Shown one piece after another: positions 11,771-22,141 of a stretch of DNA of 64,000 nucleotides. Position numbers and translations under genes: made by a program. The stretch covers positions 6,205 to 70,204 of the forward strand of contig DASTLR010000007.1 of assembly GCA_035714745.1 (NCBI GenBank), written 5' to 3'. Below the pieces are notes generated by a model. It was not told the DNA's origin, did not search any database, and saw only the letters and a list, made by a program, of their open reading frames with translations. This DNA comes from Minisyncoccota bacterium (GTDB lineage: Bacteria; Patescibacteriota; Minisyncoccia; Phycocordibacterales; UBA6065). Position 1 is the first letter of the stretch. The number at the start of each line of letters is the position of its first letter.

Positions 11771-13054
11771 TTAATTCAAAACGGTGATCTTCTTGTTCCT
11801 AAGAACAATCTTTGATTTAAAACATGTTAGTAAATCTCTCTTTTCAAAAATGTTACCCTCTTTTATTAAATACTTCGCGTAGTTCCTTATATCGATATCT
11901 TTGACTGAATAATCACATGTTTCTCCACCAAGAATTCCGATGCTAAATTTTTTATGCCTTTCGATTTCCTGATGAAGCTTCTTCCGCAACCCGGATTGGT
12001 CAAGATCTATCTTTTCAGTAAATTCGAGTAGTTGTTTTACGAGATCACCCTCTTCGAGATACCCGTTCTTGCAATGCGTATCTCTAATTTTCGTGCATCC
12101 GTAATAAATGTATTTTTTAACAGACCCATCGGCAAGATTCTTGAACTTCTCTTGAGCGGTAATACCTGATCCGCAAAGACCGCATGTCATGAGTTTCGTG
12201 AAAGCAAATTCTTTATTCGTCTCTTTACTCTTTCGCTGGCATCTCAGTTGATTCTGAACTTGGTCAAAAAGCTCCTTAGAGATGAGCGGGGTGTGTTTGC
12301 CTTGGTAGAACTTTGCGCTGTTCTTGGGATATTCAAAAGTGCCGTAATAGAAATGATTGTGGAGGATAATGAAAATATTGCTTAGCGTGAGAGGCTTTCC
12401 GCTCCGAGCAGTGAATTCCCGGTCTTTGAGCCACTGATACACTTTCTTTCCGCCCCAACCCTCATAGCCTACTTTCTCAAATACTTGTTTGATGATCGGG
12501 GCGCGAATCGGATCTATGTGGACCACGCAAACCTCATTCACGTTCGAACTATTCACGTATCCAGTAGGCGCAGGAGCAGGCCATAGGCCCATTTCGCACC
12601 TCGTCCTCAGTCCCCGCTTCACGTTCACGCTCTTATTGTCGTTCTCGAGCTTCGCCTGCGAGCAAAGAATCATGAGGAGGAACTTGTCATTCGGGTTGTT
12701 TGTGAACTTCTGCCCATATGTCCGTATCTCGGCGAGTAATTTCTGATCCATGAGATCCACGACCGAACCGAGGTCTCCTGCGTTTCGGGATAATCGGTCT
12801 GGATGCCAGACGAGAATGCCGTCGTACTTCTTCTCTCGTATCTCGTCGAGGAGCTTCTTGAACTCCTCTCGCTGTCCCGAAGCTTTTGCTGAATGCGCTT
12901 CCCTTTTTATATCGACTATCTCTAGCCCCTCCCGCTCCGCGATCTTCTTCATCTCGTTTACCTGCGATTCGATCGACAGAGCCTGCTTCTCCTCTTGTTC
13001 GGTAGACTTGCGGGCGTACAGGCAATATCGGACCTTGGTTGCTTGTTGTTCCAT
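11771..13054 (-). CDS. large serine recombinase (resolvase/integrase family)
   Basis: The N-terminal catalytic motif YARKSTEQEEKQALSIESQ (Ser nucleophile), a recombinase domain, and the C-terminal zinc ribbon CGLCGS...YYGC are present. Confidence 0.88.
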   Translation of the reverse strand: MEQQATKVRYCLYARKSTEQEEKQALSIESQVNEMKKIAEREGLEIVDIKREAHSAKASGQREEFKKLLDEIREKKYDGILVWHPDRLSRNAGDLGSVVDLMDQKLLAEIRTYGQKFTNNPNDKFLLMILCSQAKLENDNKSVNVKRGLRTRCEMGLWPAPAPTGYVNSSNVNEVCVVHIDPIRAPIIKQVFEKVGYEGWGGKKVYQWLKDREFTARSGKPLTLSNIFIILHNHFYYGTFEYPKNSAKFYQGKHTPLISKELFDQVQNQLRCQRKSKETNKEFAFTKLMTCGLCGSGITAQEKFKNLADGSVKKYIYYGCTKIRDTHCKNGYLEEGDLVKQLLEFTEKIDLDQSGLRKKLHQEIERHKKFSIGILGGETCDYSVKDIDIRNYAKYLIKEGNIFEKRDLLTCFKSKIVLRNKKITVLN

Positions 13055-14917: not shown

Positions 14918-16198
14918 TCATTGGTGTATAATTTTTACCTTAAGACCCGTCAGCTTCTCCCAGCGACGGATGATGAGGTCGCAGAACCTCGGCTCAAGCT
15001 CGCATCCGTAGACCCTTCGACCGAGGGATTCGGCGGCAATAAGCGTGCTTCCCGATCCGAGGAAGCTATCGAGGATTATGTCGTTCTGTTTCGTGCACCT
15101 CTTTATCGCCTTCTCGTGGAGCTGTGGCGGCTTCGAGGTTGCGTGCTCATAGCTCCTTGCAGATAGGCGCTTGGCCGTCCACACATCGAACATGCCGTCC
15201 ACTTTCTCTATGAGGTCGTTACCCGTACCCAGCTCCTTATTCATCACTTCGTTGAGATCGGTGATCGATTCGGCGATGTACGGCCTCCCTCTCGTCCCAT
15301 ATACAGCGGGCTCATACGCCTTGTTGAAGGCGACGGTCGGCACGGGATTGAGCGCGTTCTTGAGCCAGAGGCACACGCGCCTGTTCGTGATATCCAGAGT
15401 GCGGTAGAGCTCTTGGACCACGCCAATATAGATCTGATCGCACCAGTAGAAGACGTGCGCGTCTTTGCCGAGATAAAGCAAAGCACACTCCATACTCTTC
15501 TTTAGGAATTCTTTATATTCTCCGAACGAGCGCGAATCGTTCACGTCGCCTCCATACGACTTCTCCCCTCCTATACCTCCGTTATAGTCCACGTCTATGT
15601 TGTAGACGGGATCAGAATAGATCATCGAGGCTCGGTCTTTTCCGAACAGACGCTCCAAAGTCTCCGTCTTCGTCGAGTCGCCACAAATAACCCGATGCTT
15701 TCCAAGAAAAATGATATCGCCAAGCCTCGTCTTCGGCTCCTCTATCTTCTCAAGCTCTGCTTCGACATCGAAATCCTCCTCTTTCACCTCCCTATCCTCG
15801 TCGAATATCTTAGAGAGCTCAATATCGTCAAAGCCTGCGAATTCGAGGGTTTCCAAGTCGAAGGACTTGAGCAGGTCGAAGTCCCAATCACCACCGATCT
15901 TGTTAGAGGCGATGAGATATTCCTTAGACTCTTGCTCAGTGAGCTTCCTGTTCGGAACCCGAACATCGATCAGCTCATCTCCCCTGCCAAGGATTTGGAG
16001 GGCCTTGATGCGCTGGTGGCCAGCCAGTATAGCGCCATTGGTATCGATGGCGGGAATTTCGACGAGATTGTACTTCTTGAGGCTCCTCTTGAGGTCCGAC
16101 ATCTGCTTGTCGGATATCTTGCGAGGGTTGATCTCCTGAGGGATAAGATCGTCCACCTTTCTCTGGACCGTGGTCCATGTGAGCTTCGTGTTTTTCAT
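14918..16198 (-). CDS. ParB-like nuclease domain fused to DNA methyltransferase (N6-A/N4-C class, beta architecture)
   Basis: N-terminal ParB/Srx-like motif (AILAGHQRIKA). The MTase motif IV (SDPVYN) precedes motif I (FLGSGST) near the C-terminus. Confidence 0.75.
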   Translation of the reverse strand: MKNTKLTWTTVQRKVDDLIPQEINPRKISDKQMSDLKRSLKKYNLVEIPAIDTNGAILAGHQRIKALQILGRGDELIDVRVPNRKLTEQESKEYLIASNKIGGDWDFDLLKSFDLETLEFAGFDDIELSKIFDEDREVKEEDFDVEAELEKIEEPKTRLGDIIFLGKHRVICGDSTKTETLERLFGKDRASMIYSDPVYNIDVDYNGGIGGEKSYGGDVNDSRSFGEYKEFLKKSMECALLYLGKDAHVFYWCDQIYIGVVQELYRTLDITNRRVCLWLKNALNPVPTVAFNKAYEPAVYGTRGRPYIAESITDLNEVMNKELGTGNDLIEKVDGMFDVWTAKRLSARSYEHATSKPPQLHEKAIKRCTKQNDIILDSFLGSGSTLIAAESLGRRVYGCELEPRFCDLIIRRWEKLTGLKVKIIHQ

Positions 16199-16355
16199 TG
16201 TGTCACGTGCGCTAGCGAATAAATAGACAGAGGAATCACAAAAGCCTGACTTCATACGAAGGCTCAGCGCACCAAAATCTGATGCACTCAGGCTTTATAT
16301 GAGGTCAGGCGGGTTAAATATGTCTATTTAAGCGGCACCAACACTCTATGTTTCC

Positions 16356-16712
16356 CTAGATAAGGAGACCTGCTCGTTTGAGCTCGCTCAGGCTGGCCTC
16401 TCGGTACGTCTTGCCACCGAGCGTCATTCGATCGGTCGTATCGAGTAGAGATTCAAGCTCTGAATCGGAGCTGTCAGGAAAATATATACCATTTATAGAT
16501 ATCTCCCCTTTCACGATCTTCTGCTTGAGATAAGGAGGGATGCGGAAATCGACCCGCACACTCCCGTCCGATCCGTCCAGACGAGCGTTCACCTTCTCTA
16601 GAAATATATTCTGTCGCTTGGAGGGGTCCCAGTTCTTCTCGTCGCGATTCCTGAGCTTCCTATTCGGGAAGCTTATGGAAACCGCTTTGGAATCCCTGAT
16701 TTCCGCCTCCAT
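16356..16712 (-). CDS. hypothetical protein (divergent from LexA-like gene)
   Basis: ORF only. No domain recognised. Confidence 0.35.
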   Translation of the reverse strand: MEAEIRDSKAVSISFPNRKLRNRDEKNWDPSKRQNIFLEKVNARLDGSDGSVRVDFRIPPYLKQKIVKGEISINGIYFPDSSDSELESLLDTTDRMTLGGKTYREASLSELKRAGLLI

Positions 16713-16736: not shown

Positions 16737-16768
16737 TGTGTGTACAATGTGTATAACCTGTGTACAAC
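16737..16768. promoter_or_regulatory. three tandem TGTGTA(C/T)AA repeats (putative operator) in divergent promoter region
   Basis: TGTGTACAA at 16739 and 16759, and TGTGTATAA at 16748. Each has a TGTACA palindromic core. The repeats lie 50-80 bp upstream of the LexA-like gene. Confidence 0.5.
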
Positions 16769-16820
16769 ATTTCTCGCGAAATGTCTTGCATGAGTAAAGT
16801 AGAAGAGGTAGGATTGGGTC

Positions 16821-17462
16821 ATGCATCAGATACAGAAAAAGCTCATAGAGCTCATCAGCAACCGCGAAGACGCAGGTTCGCTTAGCCTCAGGAAGATGGC
16901 GGAGATTGTCGGCGTACCAAATCGGCCCCAGACCATCAAACACCACCTCCAACAGCTCGAGAAGAACGGGCTGATCCAAATGAACCTTGAGGAGAAGTTC
17001 CTTAAGCTCGTGAAGAAAGGCTACAACAAGCCCGTAGCGAGCCCGCTCTATTCCCTGCCCGTCGTAGGCATGGCGAACTGCGGACCAGCCGCCGACATAG
17101 CCGAAGAGAACGTGAGCCAGTACCTCAAAGTATCGTCGAGGATGCTCCCCCGCAACAAGGAGAGGCTCTACGCCCTCATCGCGGACGGCCAGTCCATGAA
17201 CAAGGCGAAGATAGACGGCAAGACGATAGAGGACGGTGACTTTGTTCTCGTGGACGGAAATTGCAAGACGTTTAAGAACGGCGACATTGTAGTTGCGGTC
17301 ATCGACGGCATGGCGACCATCAAAAAGTATAGGTTCAACAAAGGGGATGAGACCATCGTTCTCGAGGCGGATTCAACGGAGAAGTACCTCCCCATCTTTC
17401 TCCATGAGGGCGACGACTTCCTCCTGAACGGGAAGGTTATCGGCATTATCAAAGCTAAGTAA
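16821..17462 (+). CDS. LexA/CI-like repressor (wHTH + S24 self-cleaving peptidase)
   Basis: N-terminal winged HTH. The C-terminal ADGQSMNKA...GDFVLVD...K fits the Ser/Lys dyad fold of S24 peptidases. Confidence 0.8.
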   Translation: MHQIQKKLIELISNREDAGSLSLRKMAEIVGVPNRPQTIKHHLQQLEKNGLIQMNLEEKFLKLVKKGYNKPVASPLYSLPVVGMANCGPAADIAEENVSQYLKVSSRMLPRNKERLYALIADGQSMNKAKIDGKTIEDGDFVLVDGNCKTFKNGDIVVAVIDGMATIKKYRFNKGDETIVLEADSTEKYLPIFLHEGDDFLLNGKVIGIIKAK

Positions 17463-17469
17463 TTACAAC

Positions 17470-18663
17470 ATGGCAGCAAAAATTGAATTCTTTCCCGTAG
17501 ACAACGGAGACATGACACTCCTGACGCTTGAGAGCGGGCGCCAGGTGCTCATTGATATCCACATCAGACAGATTGATGATTCTGAGGAATCACCACCAGA
17601 CGTTACGACCATGCTCCGCAATCGACTGAAACGAGATGAACAGAACCGCCTGTACGTCGACGCTTTCCTGCTCACCCACCCAGACGAGGATCATATCCTC
17701 GGACTCTCTGAACACTTCCATCTCGGACCAATCGAAGACTGGGACGAGGATTCCGACAAAATTATCATCCGAGAGATGTGGTCGTCTCCGATCATATTCC
17801 GCCGAAAGAGTACGCTGGCTGAAAAAGCGAGCGTCACACTTTGCGATGACGCCATCGCTTGGTGGAACGAGGCGCGCCGACGAGTAAAAGCTTTCAGGGA
17901 TGGAGACGGTCTCAACGACGGTAACCGAATTCTTGTGCTAGGAGACGATATTGGCGATAAGGAAGCGGGATTGGAACAAATCAATATCCGCATCGGAAAT
18001 AGCTTTAGCCACATCTGCGGAACCGAGGACGGCTCTGTGATTATTGACTTGCTCGGCCCATTGCCTCAGCAGGAAACCGAAGAGGACGAAGAGGCATTGG
18101 CGAAAAACCGCTCAAGCGTAATAGCCCGTTTCCGATTCACGATAGACGATACAGATGATGCATTCATGTTCCTCGCCGGAGGAGACGCCGAAGTGTTCGT
18201 ATGGGAGCGCATTTGGGACATGCATAAAGACCATCCCGCAACCCTCTCCTACGACCTTCTTCAGACACCTCATCATTGCTCATTTCATTCAATGTCCTCA
18301 GACAGCTGGTCCGAGCGAGGCGAGGATGCGAAGGTGAATTCGAAAGCGTTGAACGCTCTGTCCCAAGCAAAGAAAGGCGCAAGCATAGTTTCTAGTTCAA
18401 AGCCGATTTCGGACGATGACGATGATCCTCCTTGCGTTCGCGCCGCGCGCGAATACGAGGCAATTGCCAAAAGGGTTGGTGGAAAGTTCATATGTACAAT
18501 GACACACCACGGAGAGGGAGAGCCTGACGTGCTTCTCTTCACGCTTGGCGAAGATGGTGGAAATAAAGGATACCATTCCCCTATTCCAACCGGCCCAGTA
18601 ATCTCTCGCCTCGACCCGCCAACAGGAGAGTTTGAAAAACACGGTGGCGGTCGTTATGCCTAA
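17470..18663 (+). CDS. metallo-beta-lactamase-fold protein
   Basis: FFPVDNGDMTLL...LIDIH...LLTHPDEDH (HxHxDH motif) and later His and Asp ligands. The 3' end overlaps the next gene by 32 nt. Confidence 0.78.
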   Translation: MAAKIEFFPVDNGDMTLLTLESGRQVLIDIHIRQIDDSEESPPDVTTMLRNRLKRDEQNRLYVDAFLLTHPDEDHILGLSEHFHLGPIEDWDEDSDKIIIREMWSSPIIFRRKSTLAEKASVTLCDDAIAWWNEARRRVKAFRDGDGLNDGNRILVLGDDIGDKEAGLEQINIRIGNSFSHICGTEDGSVIIDLLGPLPQQETEEDEEALAKNRSSVIARFRFTIDDTDDAFMFLAGGDAEVFVWERIWDMHKDHPATLSYDLLQTPHHCSFHSMSSDSWSERGEDAKVNSKALNALSQAKKGASIVSSSKPISDDDDDPPCVRAAREYEAIAKRVGGKFICTMTHHGEGEPDVLLFTLGEDGGNKGYHSPIPTGPVISRLDPPTGEFEKHGGGRYA

Positions 18664-20467
18664 GTCAACAACAACACACCGCAGGACATTCCGTGAGTCC
18701 ATTTCGAATGTCGACAAGTTTCTTCGAGAAAAACTCGGAAACGCGATTAGCACCCTCTCAAATAGAGAGCTGAGCGGTTATGATAACGGCCATCGCTTTG
18801 TGCGTGGATGGAAAATCAAAGACAAATCGCTCGAGGCAATATTTAAAGTCTTGATTCCAAGCGACTTTCCATACGGTGTCCCAAGAATCGCGATTGAGGA
18901 TCTAGAAGAACCCGACAGGGATCTCGGTAAAACTGTCCCCCACATTGAAGGCAAGGGTCTCCTCTGCCTCCCGAAGCTCAATGCTTCTCCAAGCAACCCG
19001 ACAGGACTTGTGCGCGAGCTACTCCAGATGGCGAAGACATACATAGAGACCTTCTCTAACCAACCAGAAAGGGTTGATCAAGATTTCCAAGACGAGTTCA
19101 TCTCTTATTGGAATCGACATAGGACAAAGGATGCGGACCCGATCTTGTCGCTAATCGACCCCCTCTCTGAGACGCATGAGATAATGGTCAGCAAGACGAA
19201 GGATGGTTTCCTGATCGTTGGTGAATCGACCGAGACCATCAGCAGCTGGCATAAAAATCGATTTCCGATGACGAAAGAGCTACCTTTTCAAAAAGGTCTC
19301 TTTATAAAATTGGACAAACCCCCGATACCAGAGCAGTTTCCAGATACAGTTTCGGAACTTAAGAATCTGATCGTATCTAATGCTCCAAGCGCCCTAAATG
19401 CCTTTATGGGGCGCCTAATAAACGTGAACCCGTATGTCGTTATAATGTCGTTCGCCAAGGGCTCCGAAGTCGGACTTATCGGCGTAAGCATTCTTAGCAA
19501 CACCGACAAGTCGCGAATCACCCGCGGCTTCAGAGGCACCGCCTACATGACCCCCGAAATGAAACTGAATCGACTGACAGAGCACTCGGAAACCAAAAGA
19601 TGTCAGGTAGTCCGCCTAGAACATGATTGGGTGCACGGCCGAGGCAAAGACACGTCTCAAGGTATCTTAAAGAAATCGAGGGTAACAATCCTTGGTTGCG
19701 GTTCTCTGGGTTCTCATACGGCAGTACGGCTCGCACAAGCGGGCGTGGGACAAATCACCCTAGTGGACCCAGAAAGCCTTGATGCCGCTAACGTGGGGCG
19801 ACATGCTTTGGGAATCCGCCACATAGAAAGGTCGAAAGCATATTCTCTTTCAGAGGAGCTAAGGGAGCGATTCCCTCACCTTAAAATCCTACCTTGTCCT
19901 ACGAAATGGGAGATTCTGATGGAGAAAAATTCAGATCATTTTAAAAAAGCCGACCTCGTCATAAGCACGATTGGTGAATGGCATGCGGAGGGGCCATTAA
20001 ACGAATGGCAGTCATCAGAAGATTTAGCCCCACCAATCCTATACGGTTGGATGGAGGCGCGCGCATCGGTCGCACACGCAGTGCTGATAAAAAAACCAGG
20101 TCCATGTCTTCAGTGCGTATTGGAAGAAAACGGCGACATGAGGGCGCCTGACTCTGAAGGTTGGCCTGATAACGATGGATTGGAATCAGAACCAGCGTGC
20201 GGCTCAACGTTTCAACCCTACGGACCCATCGATCTAGCTTTCGCTGAAGCCCTCGTCTCGGACCTGGCCATCGCCATGTTGACAGGAGATCAGGTAGAGA
20301 GCATTCATAGGGTACACGCGGTGTCTAAAAGCCGCATGGAAAAACTTCGAGGAAAATGGACAGATACCCACAAAAAGTTTCGTCCCGAGGGTTTCAACGG
20401 GAGCTTCCAATATGAGAGGCCCTTAAAGAAACACAAAGAGTGTCCACTCTGCTCACAAAAAACATGA
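18632..20467 (+). CDS. Cap2-like E2-E1 fusion protein (UBC-like E2 domain + ThiF/MoeB E1 domain)
   Basis: N-terminal PHIEGKGLLCLPKL fits the E2 HPN-x-G-x-(I/L)C(L) catalytic-Cys motif. The central VTILGCGSLGSHTAVRLAQAGVGQITLVDPE is an E1 Rossmann/GxGxxG motif. The C-terminus has CLQC and CPLC Zn Cys pairs. Confidence 0.85.
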   Translation: MKNTVAVVMPKSTTTHRRTFRESISNVDKFLREKLGNAISTLSNRELSGYDNGHRFVRGWKIKDKSLEAIFKVLIPSDFPYGVPRIAIEDLEEPDRDLGKTVPHIEGKGLLCLPKLNASPSNPTGLVRELLQMAKTYIETFSNQPERVDQDFQDEFISYWNRHRTKDADPILSLIDPLSETHEIMVSKTKDGFLIVGESTETISSWHKNRFPMTKELPFQKGLFIKLDKPPIPEQFPDTVSELKNLIVSNAPSALNAFMGRLINVNPYVVIMSFAKGSEVGLIGVSILSNTDKSRITRGFRGTAYMTPEMKLNRLTEHSETKRCQVVRLEHDWVHGRGKDTSQGILKKSRVTILGCGSLGSHTAVRLAQAGVGQITLVDPESLDAANVGRHALGIRHIERSKAYSLSEELRERFPHLKILPCPTKWEILMEKNSDHFKKADLVISTIGEWHAEGPLNEWQSSEDLAPPILYGWMEARASVAHAVLIKKPGPCLQCVLEENGDMRAPDSEGWPDNDGLESEPACGSTFQPYGPIDLAFAEALVSDLAIAMLTGDQVESIHRVHAVSKSRMEKLRGKWTDTHKKFRPEGFNGSFQYERPLKKHKECPLCSQKT

Positions 20468-20961
20468 AAGACTTAACCTACAAACTACCTGGGTCTTTGG
20501 GCATAGTAATCTTCAGCGAGGCTGCGCTCAGAACAATCTCAACGTATCGTCAGTGCGGCTTCTTCAGCAAGGAAGCAGGAGGGCAGCTATTTGCAGAAAT
20601 TGAGAACGGTGTCATGCGAATAGTAGACGCGACCGAACCAAGAAAAAAAGACCGTCGAGGGAAATTCAGCTTTTGGCCCCACCGACCAACTGAACAAACC
20701 GAAATCAAGGAACGCTTTAAGAAAAAAGGCTTGCACTTCGTAGGCGACTGGCACACTCACCCTGAATCCACGCCATCCCCTTCTGGGAGCGATGCAAGAA
20801 GTATCGCAGAGACCATGAGGCAAAGTCGCCATACCCTGCCAGGCATCCTATTAGTAATCATAGGGACCTTAGAGCTTCCCGACGGTCTATATGTCGGATT
20901 CCAAACCAAAACGATGCTCTACAAGCTTGATGTGTTGACGACTGGCGAAAAAGTGGTTTAA
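20440..20961 (+). CDS. Cap3-like JAB/JAMM (MPN+) isopeptidase
   Basis: EAGGQLFAEIE...GDWHTHPESTPSPSGSD matches the E...HxH-x7-S-xx-D JAMM zinc site. The gene overlaps the E2-E1 gene by 28 nt. Confidence 0.85.
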   Translation: MSTLLTKNMKDLTYKLPGSLGIVIFSEAALRTISTYRQCGFFSKEAGGQLFAEIENGVMRIVDATEPRKKDRRGKFSFWPHRPTEQTEIKERFKKKGLHFVGDWHTHPESTPSPSGSDARSIAETMRQSRHTLPGILLVIIGTLELPDGLYVGFQTKTMLYKLDVLTTGEKVV

Positions 20962-20970
20962 GCGTATTAT

Positions 20971-21573
20971 TTGCTCATGACCGATAAGATATTCTCTAAG
21001 CTGAACGTATACGACCAGATCGGATATCTGCTTGTTGGCAGCATCGCCTCACTGGTTTTCCTTTTCAACAACAAATTACTCGGCTCCCCTATCGACATCC
21101 CGGCTTTTGATATCAGTAGCCTAATCATATGGGCGATCGTGGCTTATTTCGTGGGTCATATCGTCCACGCAGTTGCCAATATAATCATCAAAGAAAATAA
21201 AACCGATTTCTCCGAATCGGACAAGGAGATACTTGAACGAGGAAAGCACTTCTTCGACCTCAAGAAGCAAGAACTCAATGCCACATATCTCTTGTGTTAC
21301 ATGCTCGCGTCTGCAAAAGATGTAACGGGCCAAGTCCAATCATTCAATGCGTACTACAGCCTGTATCGGGGCTGGTTCATAATTTTCCTGCTAGAGATGA
21401 ATTTCCTTTCATTTACGAGCATAATGCATGGCTTCAGCCTGCACATCCTCATACTTTTCAGCATAGCCTCATTCATTGCCTATCTCACCCTCAATAGAAC
21501 ACGAAGGTTCTACGGCTACTCTCGCGCAAAGACACTTCAAACATTTACTCTGATTGAGAAACTCAAACTATAA
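20971..21573 (+). CDS. multi-TM membrane protein (candidate effector)
   Basis: About four hydrophobic helices. The start is 10 nt after the JAB gene stop, and the 3' end overlaps the next gene. Confidence 0.45.
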   Translation: MLMTDKIFSKLNVYDQIGYLLVGSIASLVFLFNNKLLGSPIDIPAFDISSLIIWAIVAYFVGHIVHAVANIIIKENKTDFSESDKEILERGKHFFDLKKQELNATYLLCYMLASAKDVTGQVQSFNAYYSLYRGWFIIFLLEMNFLSFTSIMHGFSLHILILFSIASFIAYLTLNRTRRFYGYSRAKTLQTFTLIEKLKL

Positions 21574-22141
21574 TCAGAATCGTATGAAGCCAAACAATTT
21601 TCTTCAGAAAATCGGCATAGAAAGAGGAAATCTCAAACCGTTTTCACTCTTCGTGCTGGGCATTATCCTAGTCACAACCGCATTTACTGTAACTCCATTC
21701 TTTGCAACTATCGGTCCAGCAATTCTTATCATCGTCTTTGGTGTCTTTTTCTCAATCCTGTGGTTTGTTGCTGGCTATGCTGTATTCCGCTCACTCCTCG
21801 TCGCGAGCGTCGGGCTCAGCTTCATCATATTCATAGGCCAGTCTTACTGCGACCTGCCTATTGACGAGCGCGTGGCAGACAGCGCGCTGATGACCCTTAT
21901 TGGATTCGGCTTCATCTATGTGACAGCGCAATTCGGCAAGTCTCTCTACAAGGAATTATTCGGAGACAAAGATGCAAAGGAAGATTGGAAGCAAAAGGGC
22001 ATGATTGGCGTTCTTAAAGAGATCAATCAGAACAAGCATTCATGGCTCGCGCTCATCACATATGGACTGCTTATAAGTCTGTTCATCTGGCAGGTTAATA
22101 GCGTAATCAGACCAATTATTAACGGCCTCTGCGTGTACTAA
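21554..22141 (+). CDS. multi-TM membrane protein (candidate effector)
   Basis: About four or five hydrophobic helices. Last gene of the overlapping operon. Confidence 0.45.
   Translation: MRNSNYNQNRMKPNNFLQKIGIERGNLKPFSLFVLGIILVTTAFTVTPFFATIGPAILIIVFGVFFSILWFVAGYAVFRSLLVASVGLSFIIFIGQSYCDLPIDERVADSALMTLIGFGFIYVTAQFGKSLYKELFGDKDAKEDWKQKGMIGVLKEINQNKHSWLALITYGLLISLFIWQVNSVIRPIINGLCVY

What the first reader, a model, noticed from the sequence alone, without database searches (positions are those of the whole stretch)
17470..18663. MBL-fold protein translationally coupled to the E2-E1 gene; possible conjugation substrate
The MBL gene's last 32 nt overlap the E2-E1 start, and a second in-frame ATG (MPKST) sits 8 nt before the MBL stop. 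The protein ends in the flexible tail ...EFEKHGGGRYA. In characterised Cap2 systems the partner enzyme is conjugated through its extreme C-terminal Gly or Ala. The MBL-fold protein occupies the position that the CD-NTase occupies in CBASS. It is therefore inferred, not shown, to be the candidate client of the E1/E2 pair.
Basis: inference. Interest (0 to 1): 0.6.

Follow-up and report, generated by a model that had tools for sequence, protein, structure and literature searches.

The report
MBL enzyme tagged for Cap2 conjugation
This gene encodes the metallo-hydrolase of a known anti-phage system (6A-MBL), here in an unfused variant, and comparison with related loci strongly suggests that its floppy C-terminal tail is the handle by which the neighbouring ubiquitin-like E1/E2 enzyme attaches it to other proteins.

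Summary
ORF 17470-18663 encodes a 397-aa MBL-fold protein: NCBIfam 6A-MBL_enzyme scores 392 bits against a cut-off of 220, and the fold resembles the ComEC nuclease domain. The core is confidently folded. The last 34 residues are disordered and end in KHGGGRYA.

The stop overlaps the ATG of a Cap2-like E2-E1 gene by 8 nt, and that gene overlaps a Cap3-like JAB gene by 4 nt.

In related loci the gene directly upstream of this Cap2 clade carries a G..R[YH][AG] end in 70 of 74 cases, against 3 of 848 other ORFs. That upstream gene can be a CD-NTase, a class III cyclase or an MBL. MBL homologues paired with fused E2-E1-JAB proteins keep about 57% core identity but carry a different tail (QPLxHG). 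About 10-20% carry short extensions past the motif, which look like pro-forms.

The system is already known (Iyer 2006 row 6a; 6A-MBL, van den Berg 2024), and MBL conjugation is already assumed in the literature.

Three things appear to be new:
- the split Cap2/Cap3 architecture
- the tail shared across three folds
- a conserved membrane-protein partner (20977-21573)

The parts
16765..16788 (.). Palindrome CAACATTTCTCGCGAAATGTCTTG, a candidate operator for the LexA-like repressor. It lies 33 nt upstream of that gene's start.
   Evidence: the repeat finder. The function is inferred only.
16821..17462 (+). LexA/UmuD-like self-cleaving repressor (wHTH plus S24 peptidase). Its stop is 7 nt before the MBL start, so it is probably the first gene of the operon.
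   Evidence: Pfam Peptidase_S24 at 3e-18. NCBIfam lexA at 1e-24, below cut-off. Alignment to E. coli LexA conserves the Ser (GQSM) and the Lys (TIKK), with C-G at the A84-G85 cleavage site. A LexA-like gene also lies upstream of the MBL in L001 and L019.
17470..18663 (+). 6A-MBL-type MBL-fold metallo-hydrolase, 397 aa. The folded core is residues 1-363 with invariant H70-P-D72-x-D74-H75, D239 and H268-H269-C270.
   Evidence: Identical to P0001, 'metallohydrolase [Candidatus Paceibacterota bacterium]'.
18559..18660 (+). Disordered C-terminal tail (residues 364-397) ending in K-H-G-G-G-R-Y-A-COOH (motif at 18637-18660). Proposed handle for Cap2 adenylation and conjugation.
   Evidence: pLDDT mostly below 50. 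Tail motif statistics.
18656..20467 (+). Cap2-like E2-E1 fusion, 603 aa. E2 Cys in VPHIEGKGLLCLP; E1 motifs GCGSLGS, LVDPE and NVGRH; candidate E1 Cys in EPACG; two CxxC pairs. It overlaps the MBL stop by 8 nt.
   Evidence: Pfam Prok-E2_B plus ThiF. PADLOC PDLC00836 at 8e-160. Invariant columns. 33% identical to P0229, a Cap2 of a bona fide type II CBASS.
20464..20961 (+). Cap3-like JAB/JAMM isopeptidase with motif HTHPESTPSPSGSD (HxHx7Sx2D). Its ATG overlaps the Cap2 stop (ATGA).
   Evidence: Pfam Prok-JAB at 2e-13. PADLOC JAB at 5e-54. Sequence read.
20977..21573 (+). 198-aa all-helical membrane protein, a conserved partner of the MBL gene. Function unknown; effector, anchor and target are all possible.
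   Evidence: HMMs built from the partner genes hit 78 of 91 MBL loci and 0 of 73 CBASS/Pycsar loci. AF2 pLDDT 91.8. No fold match. No Pfam or NCBIfam hit.

Best explanation
This is the enzyme component of a 6A-MBL-type anti-phage operon. The operon reads: LexA-like repressor, MBL, Cap2-like E2-E1, Cap3-like JAB, membrane protein.

The MBL protein is a ComEC-like binuclear metallo-phosphodiesterase or nuclease with an intact metal site. Its 34-residue disordered tail ends in KxGGGRYA.

Proposed mechanism, inferred by homology to type II CBASS:
1. The E1 domain of Cap2 binds the tail and adenylates the carboxylate of the terminal Ala.
2. The MBL is passed as a thioester to the E1 cysteine and then to the E2 cysteine.
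3. It is then ligated to lysines of so far unknown targets, which primes or relocates the enzyme.
4. The JAB peptidase cleaves exactly after the terminal Ala. This reverses conjugation and, in homologues with extra residues, matures pro-forms.

The 8-nt and 4-nt gene overlaps probably couple translation of substrate, ligase and peptidase. The LexA-like repressor probably keeps the operon off until DNA damage or infection.

Shown here: gene order, overlaps, fold, catalytic motifs, disorder of the tail, and co-variation of the tail with the Cap2 clade. Inferred: every chemical step, the priming effect and the regulation.

I consider the MBL more likely an effector working with the membrane partner (about 0.6) than a signal-making enzyme (about 0.4).
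For: Family membership of the MBL: NF058524 scores 391.7 bits against a cut-off of 220.

Fold: ComEC MBL domain, Pce phosphodiesterase and RNase J/CPSF73-type enzymes. Invariant HxDxDH, D239 and HHC columns.

Disorder: tail residues 364-397 have pLDDT mostly below 50.

Conservation of the end: 111 of 120 close homologues and 65 of 87 diverse representatives end in G or A. Most of the rest carry [HY][GA] followed by 1-13 extra residues.

Tail follows the E1/E2 partner:
- ..GGGRYA MBLs are always followed by a Cap2 of about 600 aa (E <= 1e-116 to the window's) plus a separate JAB.
- ..QPLxHG MBLs are followed by a fusion of about 740-790 aa.
- MBL core identity is about 57% both within the RYA class and between the two classes.

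Same tail on unrelated folds within this Cap2 clade: 70 of 74 genes directly upstream of Cap2 end in G..R[YH][AG], against 3 of 848 other ORFs of at least 150 aa. These upstream genes are 58 clear CD-NTases, 8 MBLs, one Guanylate_cyc cyclase and divergent CD-NTases. One example is the CBASS CD-NTase of L083, which ends DKRGGERYA.

Selection acts on the peptide: Arg at position -3 is 61/61 and uses all six codons, and the Gly codons vary at third positions.

Catalytic motifs of E2, E1 and JAB are intact.

Published biochemistry for the homologous system:
- The cGAS C-terminus sits in the Cap2 adenylation site as an AMP conjugate, and Cap3 cleaves exactly after the last residue (bioRxiv 10.1101/2022.03.31.486616).
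- The terminal Gly/Ala is conserved only in operons that have Cap2 and Cap3, and it is required for thioester formation and conjugation (PMC10097602).
- The literature already groups 'MBL pathways' with type II CBASS and Pycsar (PMC11601596; PMC13373217).
Against: No conjugate, thioester or adenylate was observed; all the chemistry is by analogy.

I could not read the primary 6A-MBL paper (van den Berg 2024). I therefore do not know whether conjugation of the MBL has been tested.

About a quarter of the diverse family members do not end in G/A. The Klebsiella plasmid version ends ...PRAGVINQ. These need a processing step that is only assumed.

Part of the terminal [YH]-A conservation is explained at the nucleotide level by the embedded Cap2 start codon: NAT codons in 57 of 61 loci.

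A distant MBL next to separate E2, E1 and JAB genes (L168) ends ...AMAQE. So an E1/E2 neighbour does not always imply a G/A tail.

The conjugation target and the substrate of the MBL active site are unknown.
Confidence: 0.8

Rival explanations
1. The conserved 3' end of the MBL gene reflects the translation-initiation region of the overlapping Cap2 gene (a G-rich Shine-Dalgarno-like run plus the ATG). It would not be a peptide recognised by E1, and the tail itself would have no function.
For: The Cap2 ATG is embedded in the Tyr/His-Ala-stop codons, and TAT/CAT is used in 57 of 61 distinct loci against TAC in 4. The GGN GGN GGN run lies 8-15 nt upstream of the ATG. GCC for Ala in 41 of 61 loci fits the frequent 'MP' start of Cap2.
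Against: Arg at -3 is invariant (61/61) but is encoded by all six codons. The Gly codons use GGC, GGT, GGA and GGG. Only 17 of 61 loci contain a GGAG/GAGG core. The QPLxHG class is equally conserved with variable spacing to the next gene, from about -250 to +121 nt measured to the first possible start. Tails with extensions past the motif exist. Biochemistry on CD-NTases shows the terminal residue is the reactive group.
Confidence: 0.05
2. The MBL protein is only the effector and is not itself conjugated. Cap2/Cap3 would modify something else: the membrane partner, a host or phage protein, or a Ubl encoded elsewhere. The tail would merely dock the MBL to Cap2 or keep it inactive.
For: The MBL plus membrane-protein pair also occurs without any Cap2, next to methylase and helicase genes (L164, L166), where the MBLs have no G/A end. 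In L168 an MBL sits beside separate E2, E1 and JAB genes yet ends AMAQE. The tools here offer no way to demonstrate transfer.
Against: No beta-grasp/Ubl ORF lies in the operon. A terminal small residue preceded by a disordered linker is exactly what E1 adenylation needs, and it is conserved family-wide. CD-NTases and a cyclase that pair with the same Cap2 clade carry the identical tail, and for CD-NTases the tail is the conjugated group. Pro-form extensions only make sense if a free carboxylate must be generated.
Confidence: 0.1
3. The tail is a targeting peptide for the conserved membrane protein. It would recruit the MBL to the membrane independently of E1/E2 chemistry.
For: The membrane partner is present in 78 of 91 MBL loci.
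Against: CBASS and Pycsar loci carry the same tail but have no such membrane gene (0 of 73). The two tail classes do not map onto the two membrane-protein subfamilies: TMB partners occur with both RYA and HG tails (window, L001, L005...).
Confidence: 0.03

Closest known systems
6A-MBL anti-phage system (Iyer, Burroughs & Aravind 2006, Table 1 row 6a; named and shown to defend P. aeruginosa by van den Berg et al. 2024; NCBIfam NF058524 and NF058523)
   Same: The MBL protein is a bona fide member: NF058524 scores 392 bits against a cut-off of 220, with 50-57% core identity to canonical members. E2, E1 and JAB activities are encoded immediately downstream. The tail is disordered and ends in a small residue.
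   Different: E2-E1 and JAB are two separate genes, not one triple-module protein. The E2-E1 scores only 62.7 bits against the 6A-MBL cap2_3 model (cut-off 320) and belongs to a CBASS-type Cap2 clade. The tail is ..GGGRYA rather than ..QPLxHG. The host is a CPR bacterium and the regulator is LexA-like. The conserved membrane partner has no curated NCBIfam model.
Type II CBASS Cap2/Cap3 regulation of CD-NTases (Ledvina et al. 2023; Jenson et al. 2023)
   Same: A Cap2-like E2-E1 fusion 33% identical to a CBASS-linked Cap2. A Cap3-like JAB. The substrate gene lies directly upstream with an overlapping stop and start. The disordered tail ends in Ala, and its sequence motif is the same as on the CD-NTases of that Cap2 clade.
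   Different: There is no CD-NTase, no SAVED/CARF-type effector, and no evidence for a nucleotide signal. The conjugated enzyme is a hydrolase-fold protein rather than a synthase.
Type II Pycsar (cyclase plus Cap2/Cap3)
   Same: The same regulatory module. One cyclase found here (L158, PF00211) ends ..VRKEGGGRYA.
   Different: A different enzyme fold and different chemistry.
ComEC/Rec2 C-terminal MBL nuclease domain, and defence-associated MBL proteins (Avs1a, Lamassu LmuA variants, DRT-associated MBL)
   Same: The closest fold match is 9ic4. Weak N-terminal profile matches to Avs1a, LmuA and RTasMBL. Like ComEC, the MBL is associated with a membrane component.
   Different: A stand-alone protein with an HxDxDH motif and a conjugation tail. 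No OB or competence domains.

Membership tests
6A-MBL anti-phage system | MBL-fold protein matching the curated 6A-MBL_enzyme model above its cut-off | tested here: met
   NF058524.1 scores 391.7 bits against a cut-off of 220, covering residues 7-363.
6A-MBL anti-phage system | Adjacent single polypeptide with E2, E1 and JAB domains (triple module; NF058523 cap2_3) | tested here: not met
   The E2-E1 is 603 aa without a JAB domain and scores 62.7 bits against a cut-off of 320. JAB is a separate 166-173 aa gene that scores 31 bits on the model's C-terminus.
6A-MBL anti-phage system | Intact E2 Cys, E1 adenylation motifs and Cys, and the JAMM motif | tested here: met
   PH..GLLCLP, GCGSLGS, LVDPE, NVGRH, EPACG and 2x CxxC are invariant across the family and present in the window. 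HxHx7Sx2D is present in the JAB.
6A-MBL anti-phage system | Protects against phage | not testable with these tools
   Known only from secondary citations of van den Berg 2024.
Type II CBASS | CD-NTase (SMODS/DncV-like) signal synthase in the operon | tested here: not met
   No such domain in any ORF from 16821 to 22141. The position upstream of Cap2 is occupied by the MBL.
Type II CBASS | Cap2 E2-E1 fusion and Cap3 JAB | tested here: met
   PADLOC E1-E2 PDLC00836 at 8e-160 over the full length, and JAB PDLC00898 at 5e-54. 33% identity to the Cap2 of CBASS locus L083. NCBIfam Cap3 scores 66.8 bits, below its cut-off of 200.
Cap2 substrates (CD-NTase-like 'client') | Disordered C-terminal extension ending in Gly/Ala, conserved only when Cap2 and Cap3 are present | tested here: met
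   pLDDT is mostly below 50 for residues 364-397. G/A end in 111 of 120 and 65 of 87 homologues. MBLs outside Cap2 contexts (L164, L166) lack it.
Cap2 substrates (CD-NTase-like 'client') | Covalent E1/E2 thioester and isopeptide conjugates through the C-terminus | not testable with these tools
   Needs biochemistry or a multimer structure prediction; only single chains can be predicted here.
Metallo-beta-lactamase superfamily | Alpha-beta/beta-alpha sandwich with the metal-binding motif set (HxHxDH, H, D/C, H) | tested here: met
   Foldseek probability 1.0 to many MBL structures. The motif is the variant H70-x-D72-x-D74-H75, with D239 and H268/H269 invariant. No Pfam MBL model reaches threshold.
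LexA/S24 self-cleaving repressors (upstream gene) | N-terminal wHTH, Ala/Cys-Gly cleavage site, Ser-Lys dyad | tested here: met
   Peptidase_S24 at 3e-18. Alignment to E. coli LexA conserves Ser119 and Lys156, with C-G at the cleavage site. The lexA equivalog score of 87 is below its cut-off of 111.

The most novel reading that the evidence does not exclude
The K-x-G-G-G-R-[Y/H]-A tail is a portable, clade-specific 'address tag' for one lineage of Cap2 ligases. It has been grafted onto at least three unrelated enzyme folds: CD-NTase, class III cyclase and MBL hydrolase. In the MBL case, Cap2/Cap3 would control a two-gene effector module (ComEC-like MBL plus a dedicated membrane protein) rather than a second-messenger synthase. 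That same MBL-membrane module is also plugged into methylase/helicase and split E2/E1/JAB operons. If so, Cap2/Cap3 is a general-purpose priming device whose specificity could be reprogrammed by transplanting about 10 residues.
Probability: 0.45. Interest if true: 0.6.

Novelty: new variant of a known kind. Interest (0 to 1): 0.45.

Why it matters
The gene itself belongs to a described defence system, so the basic call is not a discovery.

The comparison adds three testable points.

First, substrate choice by bacterial E1-E2 fusions seems to be written in a short transferable tail. That gives a simple experiment: swap tails between an MBL, a CD-NTase and a cyclase. It may also give a tool for directed protein conjugation.

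Second, current curated models would miss this split variant. The E2-E1 fails the 6A-MBL model, and the variant occurs in small-genome CPR bacteria.

Third, a conserved membrane partner of the MBL is absent from the curated two-gene description. It may be the missing effector, anchor or target, and so bears on how 6A-MBL actually stops phage.

Tried and rejected
- Pfam on the MBL protein gave no hit. PADLOC gave only weak N-terminal hits to other MBL defence proteins.
- A sequence search of the E2-E1 against PDB chains aligned only the ThiF core (Cap2 7to3 at 1e-6). This was too weak to transfer residue numbers.
It was repeated with closer sequences.
- The primary 6A-MBL paper (van den Berg 2024) and the published Ledvina 2023 paper are not held. 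Nine literature searches found no paper reporting a direct test of MBL conjugation.
- The fold search of the membrane partner against PDB gave nothing below E = 0.5. Pfam and NCBIfam found nothing for it, and PADLOC gave only a weak Csx27 hit at 7e-4.
- Homology between the two membrane-protein subfamilies is only marginal by hhalign (probability 52%, E 1.4e-4). One protein (L014) hits both HMMs.
- The promoter and terminator scan inside the operon found nothing above shuffled expectation.
- No MBL homologue was found in the phage collection.
- I considered and rejected the idea that the TTG at 18632 is the Cap2 start.
- I considered an SD/ATG-only explanation for tail conservation. It was rejected as the sole cause on the codon evidence.

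Full report
**1. What is in the sequence**

ORF 17470..18663 (+) is real and encodes 397 aa ending ...GEFEKHGGGRYA, with stop TAA at 18661-18663.

The next ORF can begin at TTG 18632 or at ATG 18656 (MPKST...). The identical database entry P0121 starts at the ATG and is 603 aa. The overlap is therefore ATGCCTAA, 8 nt.

The E2-E1 gene in turn overlaps the JAB gene by ATGA (ATG 20464, stop 20465-20467).

Upstream, a LexA-like gene (16821..17462) ends 7 nt before the MBL start. Downstream of JAB lies a 198-aa membrane-protein gene (20977..21573).

No promoter-like or terminator-like site above shuffled expectation interrupts this run of genes.

The identical MBL protein is annotated 'metallohydrolase [Candidatus Paceibacterota bacterium]' on a 306-kb contig.

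**2. What the protein is**

Pfam finds nothing. NCBIfam NF058524 'anti-phage 6A-MBL system MBL-fold protein' scores 391.7 bits against a cut-off of 220 over residues 7-363.

An AlphaFold2 model built on 75 homologues has mean pLDDT 88.8 and pTM 0.88. The core (residues 1-363) is confident. Residues 364-397 are mostly below pLDDT 50.

The best Foldseek match is the ComEC beta-lactamase-like domain (9ic4, E 1e-12). Next come the Pce phosphorylcholine esterase and RNase J/CPSF73-type nucleases.

Invariant columns include H70-P-D72-x-D74-H75, D239 and H268-H269-C270. The metal site is therefore intact, with an HxDxDH variant of the classical motif.

**3. The neighbours**

The 603-aa protein has Prok-E2_B and ThiF domains. 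It matches a PADLOC E1-E2 model end to end (E 8e-160).

Across homologues the following are invariant, and all are present in the window:
- the E2 PH...C motif
- the Gly-rich loop
- the LVDPE Asp
- NVGRH
- an EPACG cysteine
- two CxxC pairs

The JAB protein carries HxHx7Sx2D.

The E2-E1 reaches only 62.7 bits on the curated '6A-MBL cap2_3' model (cut-off 320), and the JAB is a separate gene. This operon is therefore not the canonical fused architecture.

**4. Is the tail a conjugation handle? Comparative tests**

*(a) Conservation.*
- Of the 120 closest homologues, 111 end in G or A. They fall into two sharply different classes..K.GGGRYA and ..G.QPLxHG.
- In an exhaustive search of cluster representatives reaching down to about 30% identity, 65 of 87 full-length proteins end in G or A. 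Most of the others show [H/Y][G/A] followed by a few extra residues.

*(b) The tail follows the ligase.* In 80 genome loci:
- Every ..GGGRYA MBL is followed by a Cap2 of about 600 aa closely related to the window's (E <= 1e-116), plus a separate JAB.
- ..QPLxHG MBLs are followed by a fused protein of about 740-790 aa that shares little beyond the ThiF core.
- The MBL cores are about 57% identical both between the two classes and within the RYA class.
- The body is therefore conserved while the tail and the ligase are exchanged together.

*(c) The same tail sits on unrelated folds.*
- A Cap2 33% identical to the window's lies in a bona fide type II CBASS (DncV-like NTase, patatin, Cap2, JAB). 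Its CD-NTase ends ...VDKRGGERYA.
- A metagenome scan seeded on that Cap2 clade returned 80 further loci.
- The gene directly upstream of Cap2 ends G..R[YH][AG] in 70 of 74 cases, against 3 of 848 other ORFs of at least 150 aa in the same loci.
- The upstream genes are CD-NTases (56 of 58 with the motif), MBLs (8 of 8), one class III cyclase (PF00211), and divergent CD-NTases next to SAVED effectors.

*(d) Pro-forms.* About 11 of the 120 homologues and about 16 of the 80 genome loci carry 1-13 residues past the motif. Examples are GGGRYARRSA, PLPHGAEAPQES and HAHGCGSDLA. This makes sense if a peptidase must expose the carboxylate. Cap3 is known to cut exactly after the last residue of cGAS in fusions.

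*(e) Peptide or nucleotide constraint?*
- The Cap2 ATG is embedded in the Tyr/His-Ala-stop codons. NAT is used in 57 of 61 distinct loci, so the overlap itself is conserved. This explains the frequent 'MP' start of Cap2.
- However, Arg at position -3 is invariant while using all six codons. The Gly codons vary at third positions. Only 17 of 61 loci contain a GGAG/GAGG core.
- The tail is therefore selected as a peptide, with an added start-codon constraint on its last two codons.

**5. Literature**

- The system was named 6A-MBL and reported as anti-phage in P. aeruginosa by van den Berg et al. 2024. I could not read that paper. I know it through citing papers, which also list it among jumbo-phage defences.
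- Ye et al. [quoted passage not shown] - For CBASS, the C-terminal Gly/Ala requirement, the Cap2 thioester, lysine isopeptides and Cap3 cleavage are all experimentally shown (PMC10097602; bioRxiv 10.1101/2022.03.31.486616).
- I found no held paper that tests MBL conjugation directly.

**6. Further components**

*The membrane partner.*
- The 198-aa protein after JAB groups with the gene that follows the fused ligase in many canonical loci.
- HMMs of two related membrane-protein subfamilies hit 78 of 91 MBL loci. The misses are mostly short contigs. They hit 0 of 73 CBASS/Pycsar loci with the related Cap2.
- The gene can lie downstream of JAB, upstream of the MBL, or convergent to the operon.
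- Its AF2 model is confident and all-helical (pLDDT 91.8). It has no structural or profile match.

*The same membrane family in other operons.* Elsewhere it again sits next to other ComEC-like MBL genes:
- in methylase/helicase operons (L164, L166)
- in an operon with separate E2, E1 and JAB genes (L168)

Those MBLs do not end in G/A. MBL plus membrane protein therefore looks like a portable module. This tilts me towards an effector role for the MBL, but it does not settle the question.

*The LexA-like protein.* It keeps the Ser-Lys dyad and has a Cys-Gly at the cleavage position. A palindrome lies 33 nt upstream of its start. Induction by DNA damage is plausible but not shown.

**7. Verdict**

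It is not itself novel.

The window holds a split-gene, CBASS-clade-ligase variant of the system in a CPR bacterium.

As far as I could check, these points are new:
- the clade-specific tail shared by three enzyme folds
- the conserved 8-nt overlap
- the membrane partner

My confidence that the MBL is the Cap2 substrate through its C-terminal Ala is about 0.8.

Noticed in passing
window 20977-21573 (+); also L001 9174-9770, L081 7229-7984 (-), L129 3839-4672: A membrane protein of about 200-250 aa accompanies the MBL gene in 78 of 91 loci, in variable position and orientation. It is absent from 73 CBASS/Pycsar loci that have the related Cap2. It has no Pfam, NCBIfam or PDB-fold match, although its AF2 model is confident.
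   Followed up: partly
L164 4256-6618; L166 4994-6597; L168 638-4429: The same membrane-protein family sits next to other ComEC-like MBL genes in unrelated operons. One type has GmrSD_N, an N6_N4 methylase and a ResIII helicase. Another has separate E2-CBASS, ThiF and JAB genes. MBL plus membrane protein looks like a portable two-gene module.
   Followed up: partly
window 18652-18663 and the equivalent site in 61 distinct loci: The substrate's last codons, (T/C)AT GCN stop, embed the Cap2 ATG. The 8-nt overlap is conserved in 57 of 61 loci whatever the substrate fold. It explains why so many Cap2 proteins begin with Met-Pro.
   Followed up: yes
L158 836-2389: A class III adenylate/guanylate cyclase (PF00211) lies directly upstream of a Cap2 and ends ..VRKEGGGRYA. 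This is a type II Pycsar-like operon using the same tail.
   Followed up: partly
window 16765-16788: Palindrome CAACATTTCTCGCGAAATGTCTTG lies between the divergent 118-aa ORF (16356-16712, -) and the LexA-like gene. It is a candidate operator.
   Followed up: no
L170 (Klebsiella pneumoniae plasmid NZ_CP046614.1) 3504-7907: The enterobacterial plasmid 6A-MBL has a divergent WYL regulator, a fused 742-aa E2-E1-JAB, and an MBL ending ...PRAGVINQ. This end is not G/A and may be a pro-form. The family occurs on 279 PLSDB plasmids (127 Klebsiella, 139 conjugative) and on no phage record.
   Followed up: partly
window 11771-13054 (-), 14918-16255 (-): A large serine recombinase, and a protein carrying an N6_N4 DNA methylase domain (PF01555, residues 209-427 of 444), lie just upstream of the operon. 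The defence genes may sit on an integrated mobile element.
   Followed up: no
window 21554-22141 (+): A second ORF of 195 aa with four predicted transmembrane segments overlaps the end of the membrane-partner gene by 20 nt. It has no family match, and its relation to the system is unknown.
   Followed up: no
P0013, L027: Some homologues carry the tail motif twice in tandem (..GGGRYASGDRYG; ..QPLRHGQPLRHG). This could give two alternative processing or conjugation ends.
   Followed up: no
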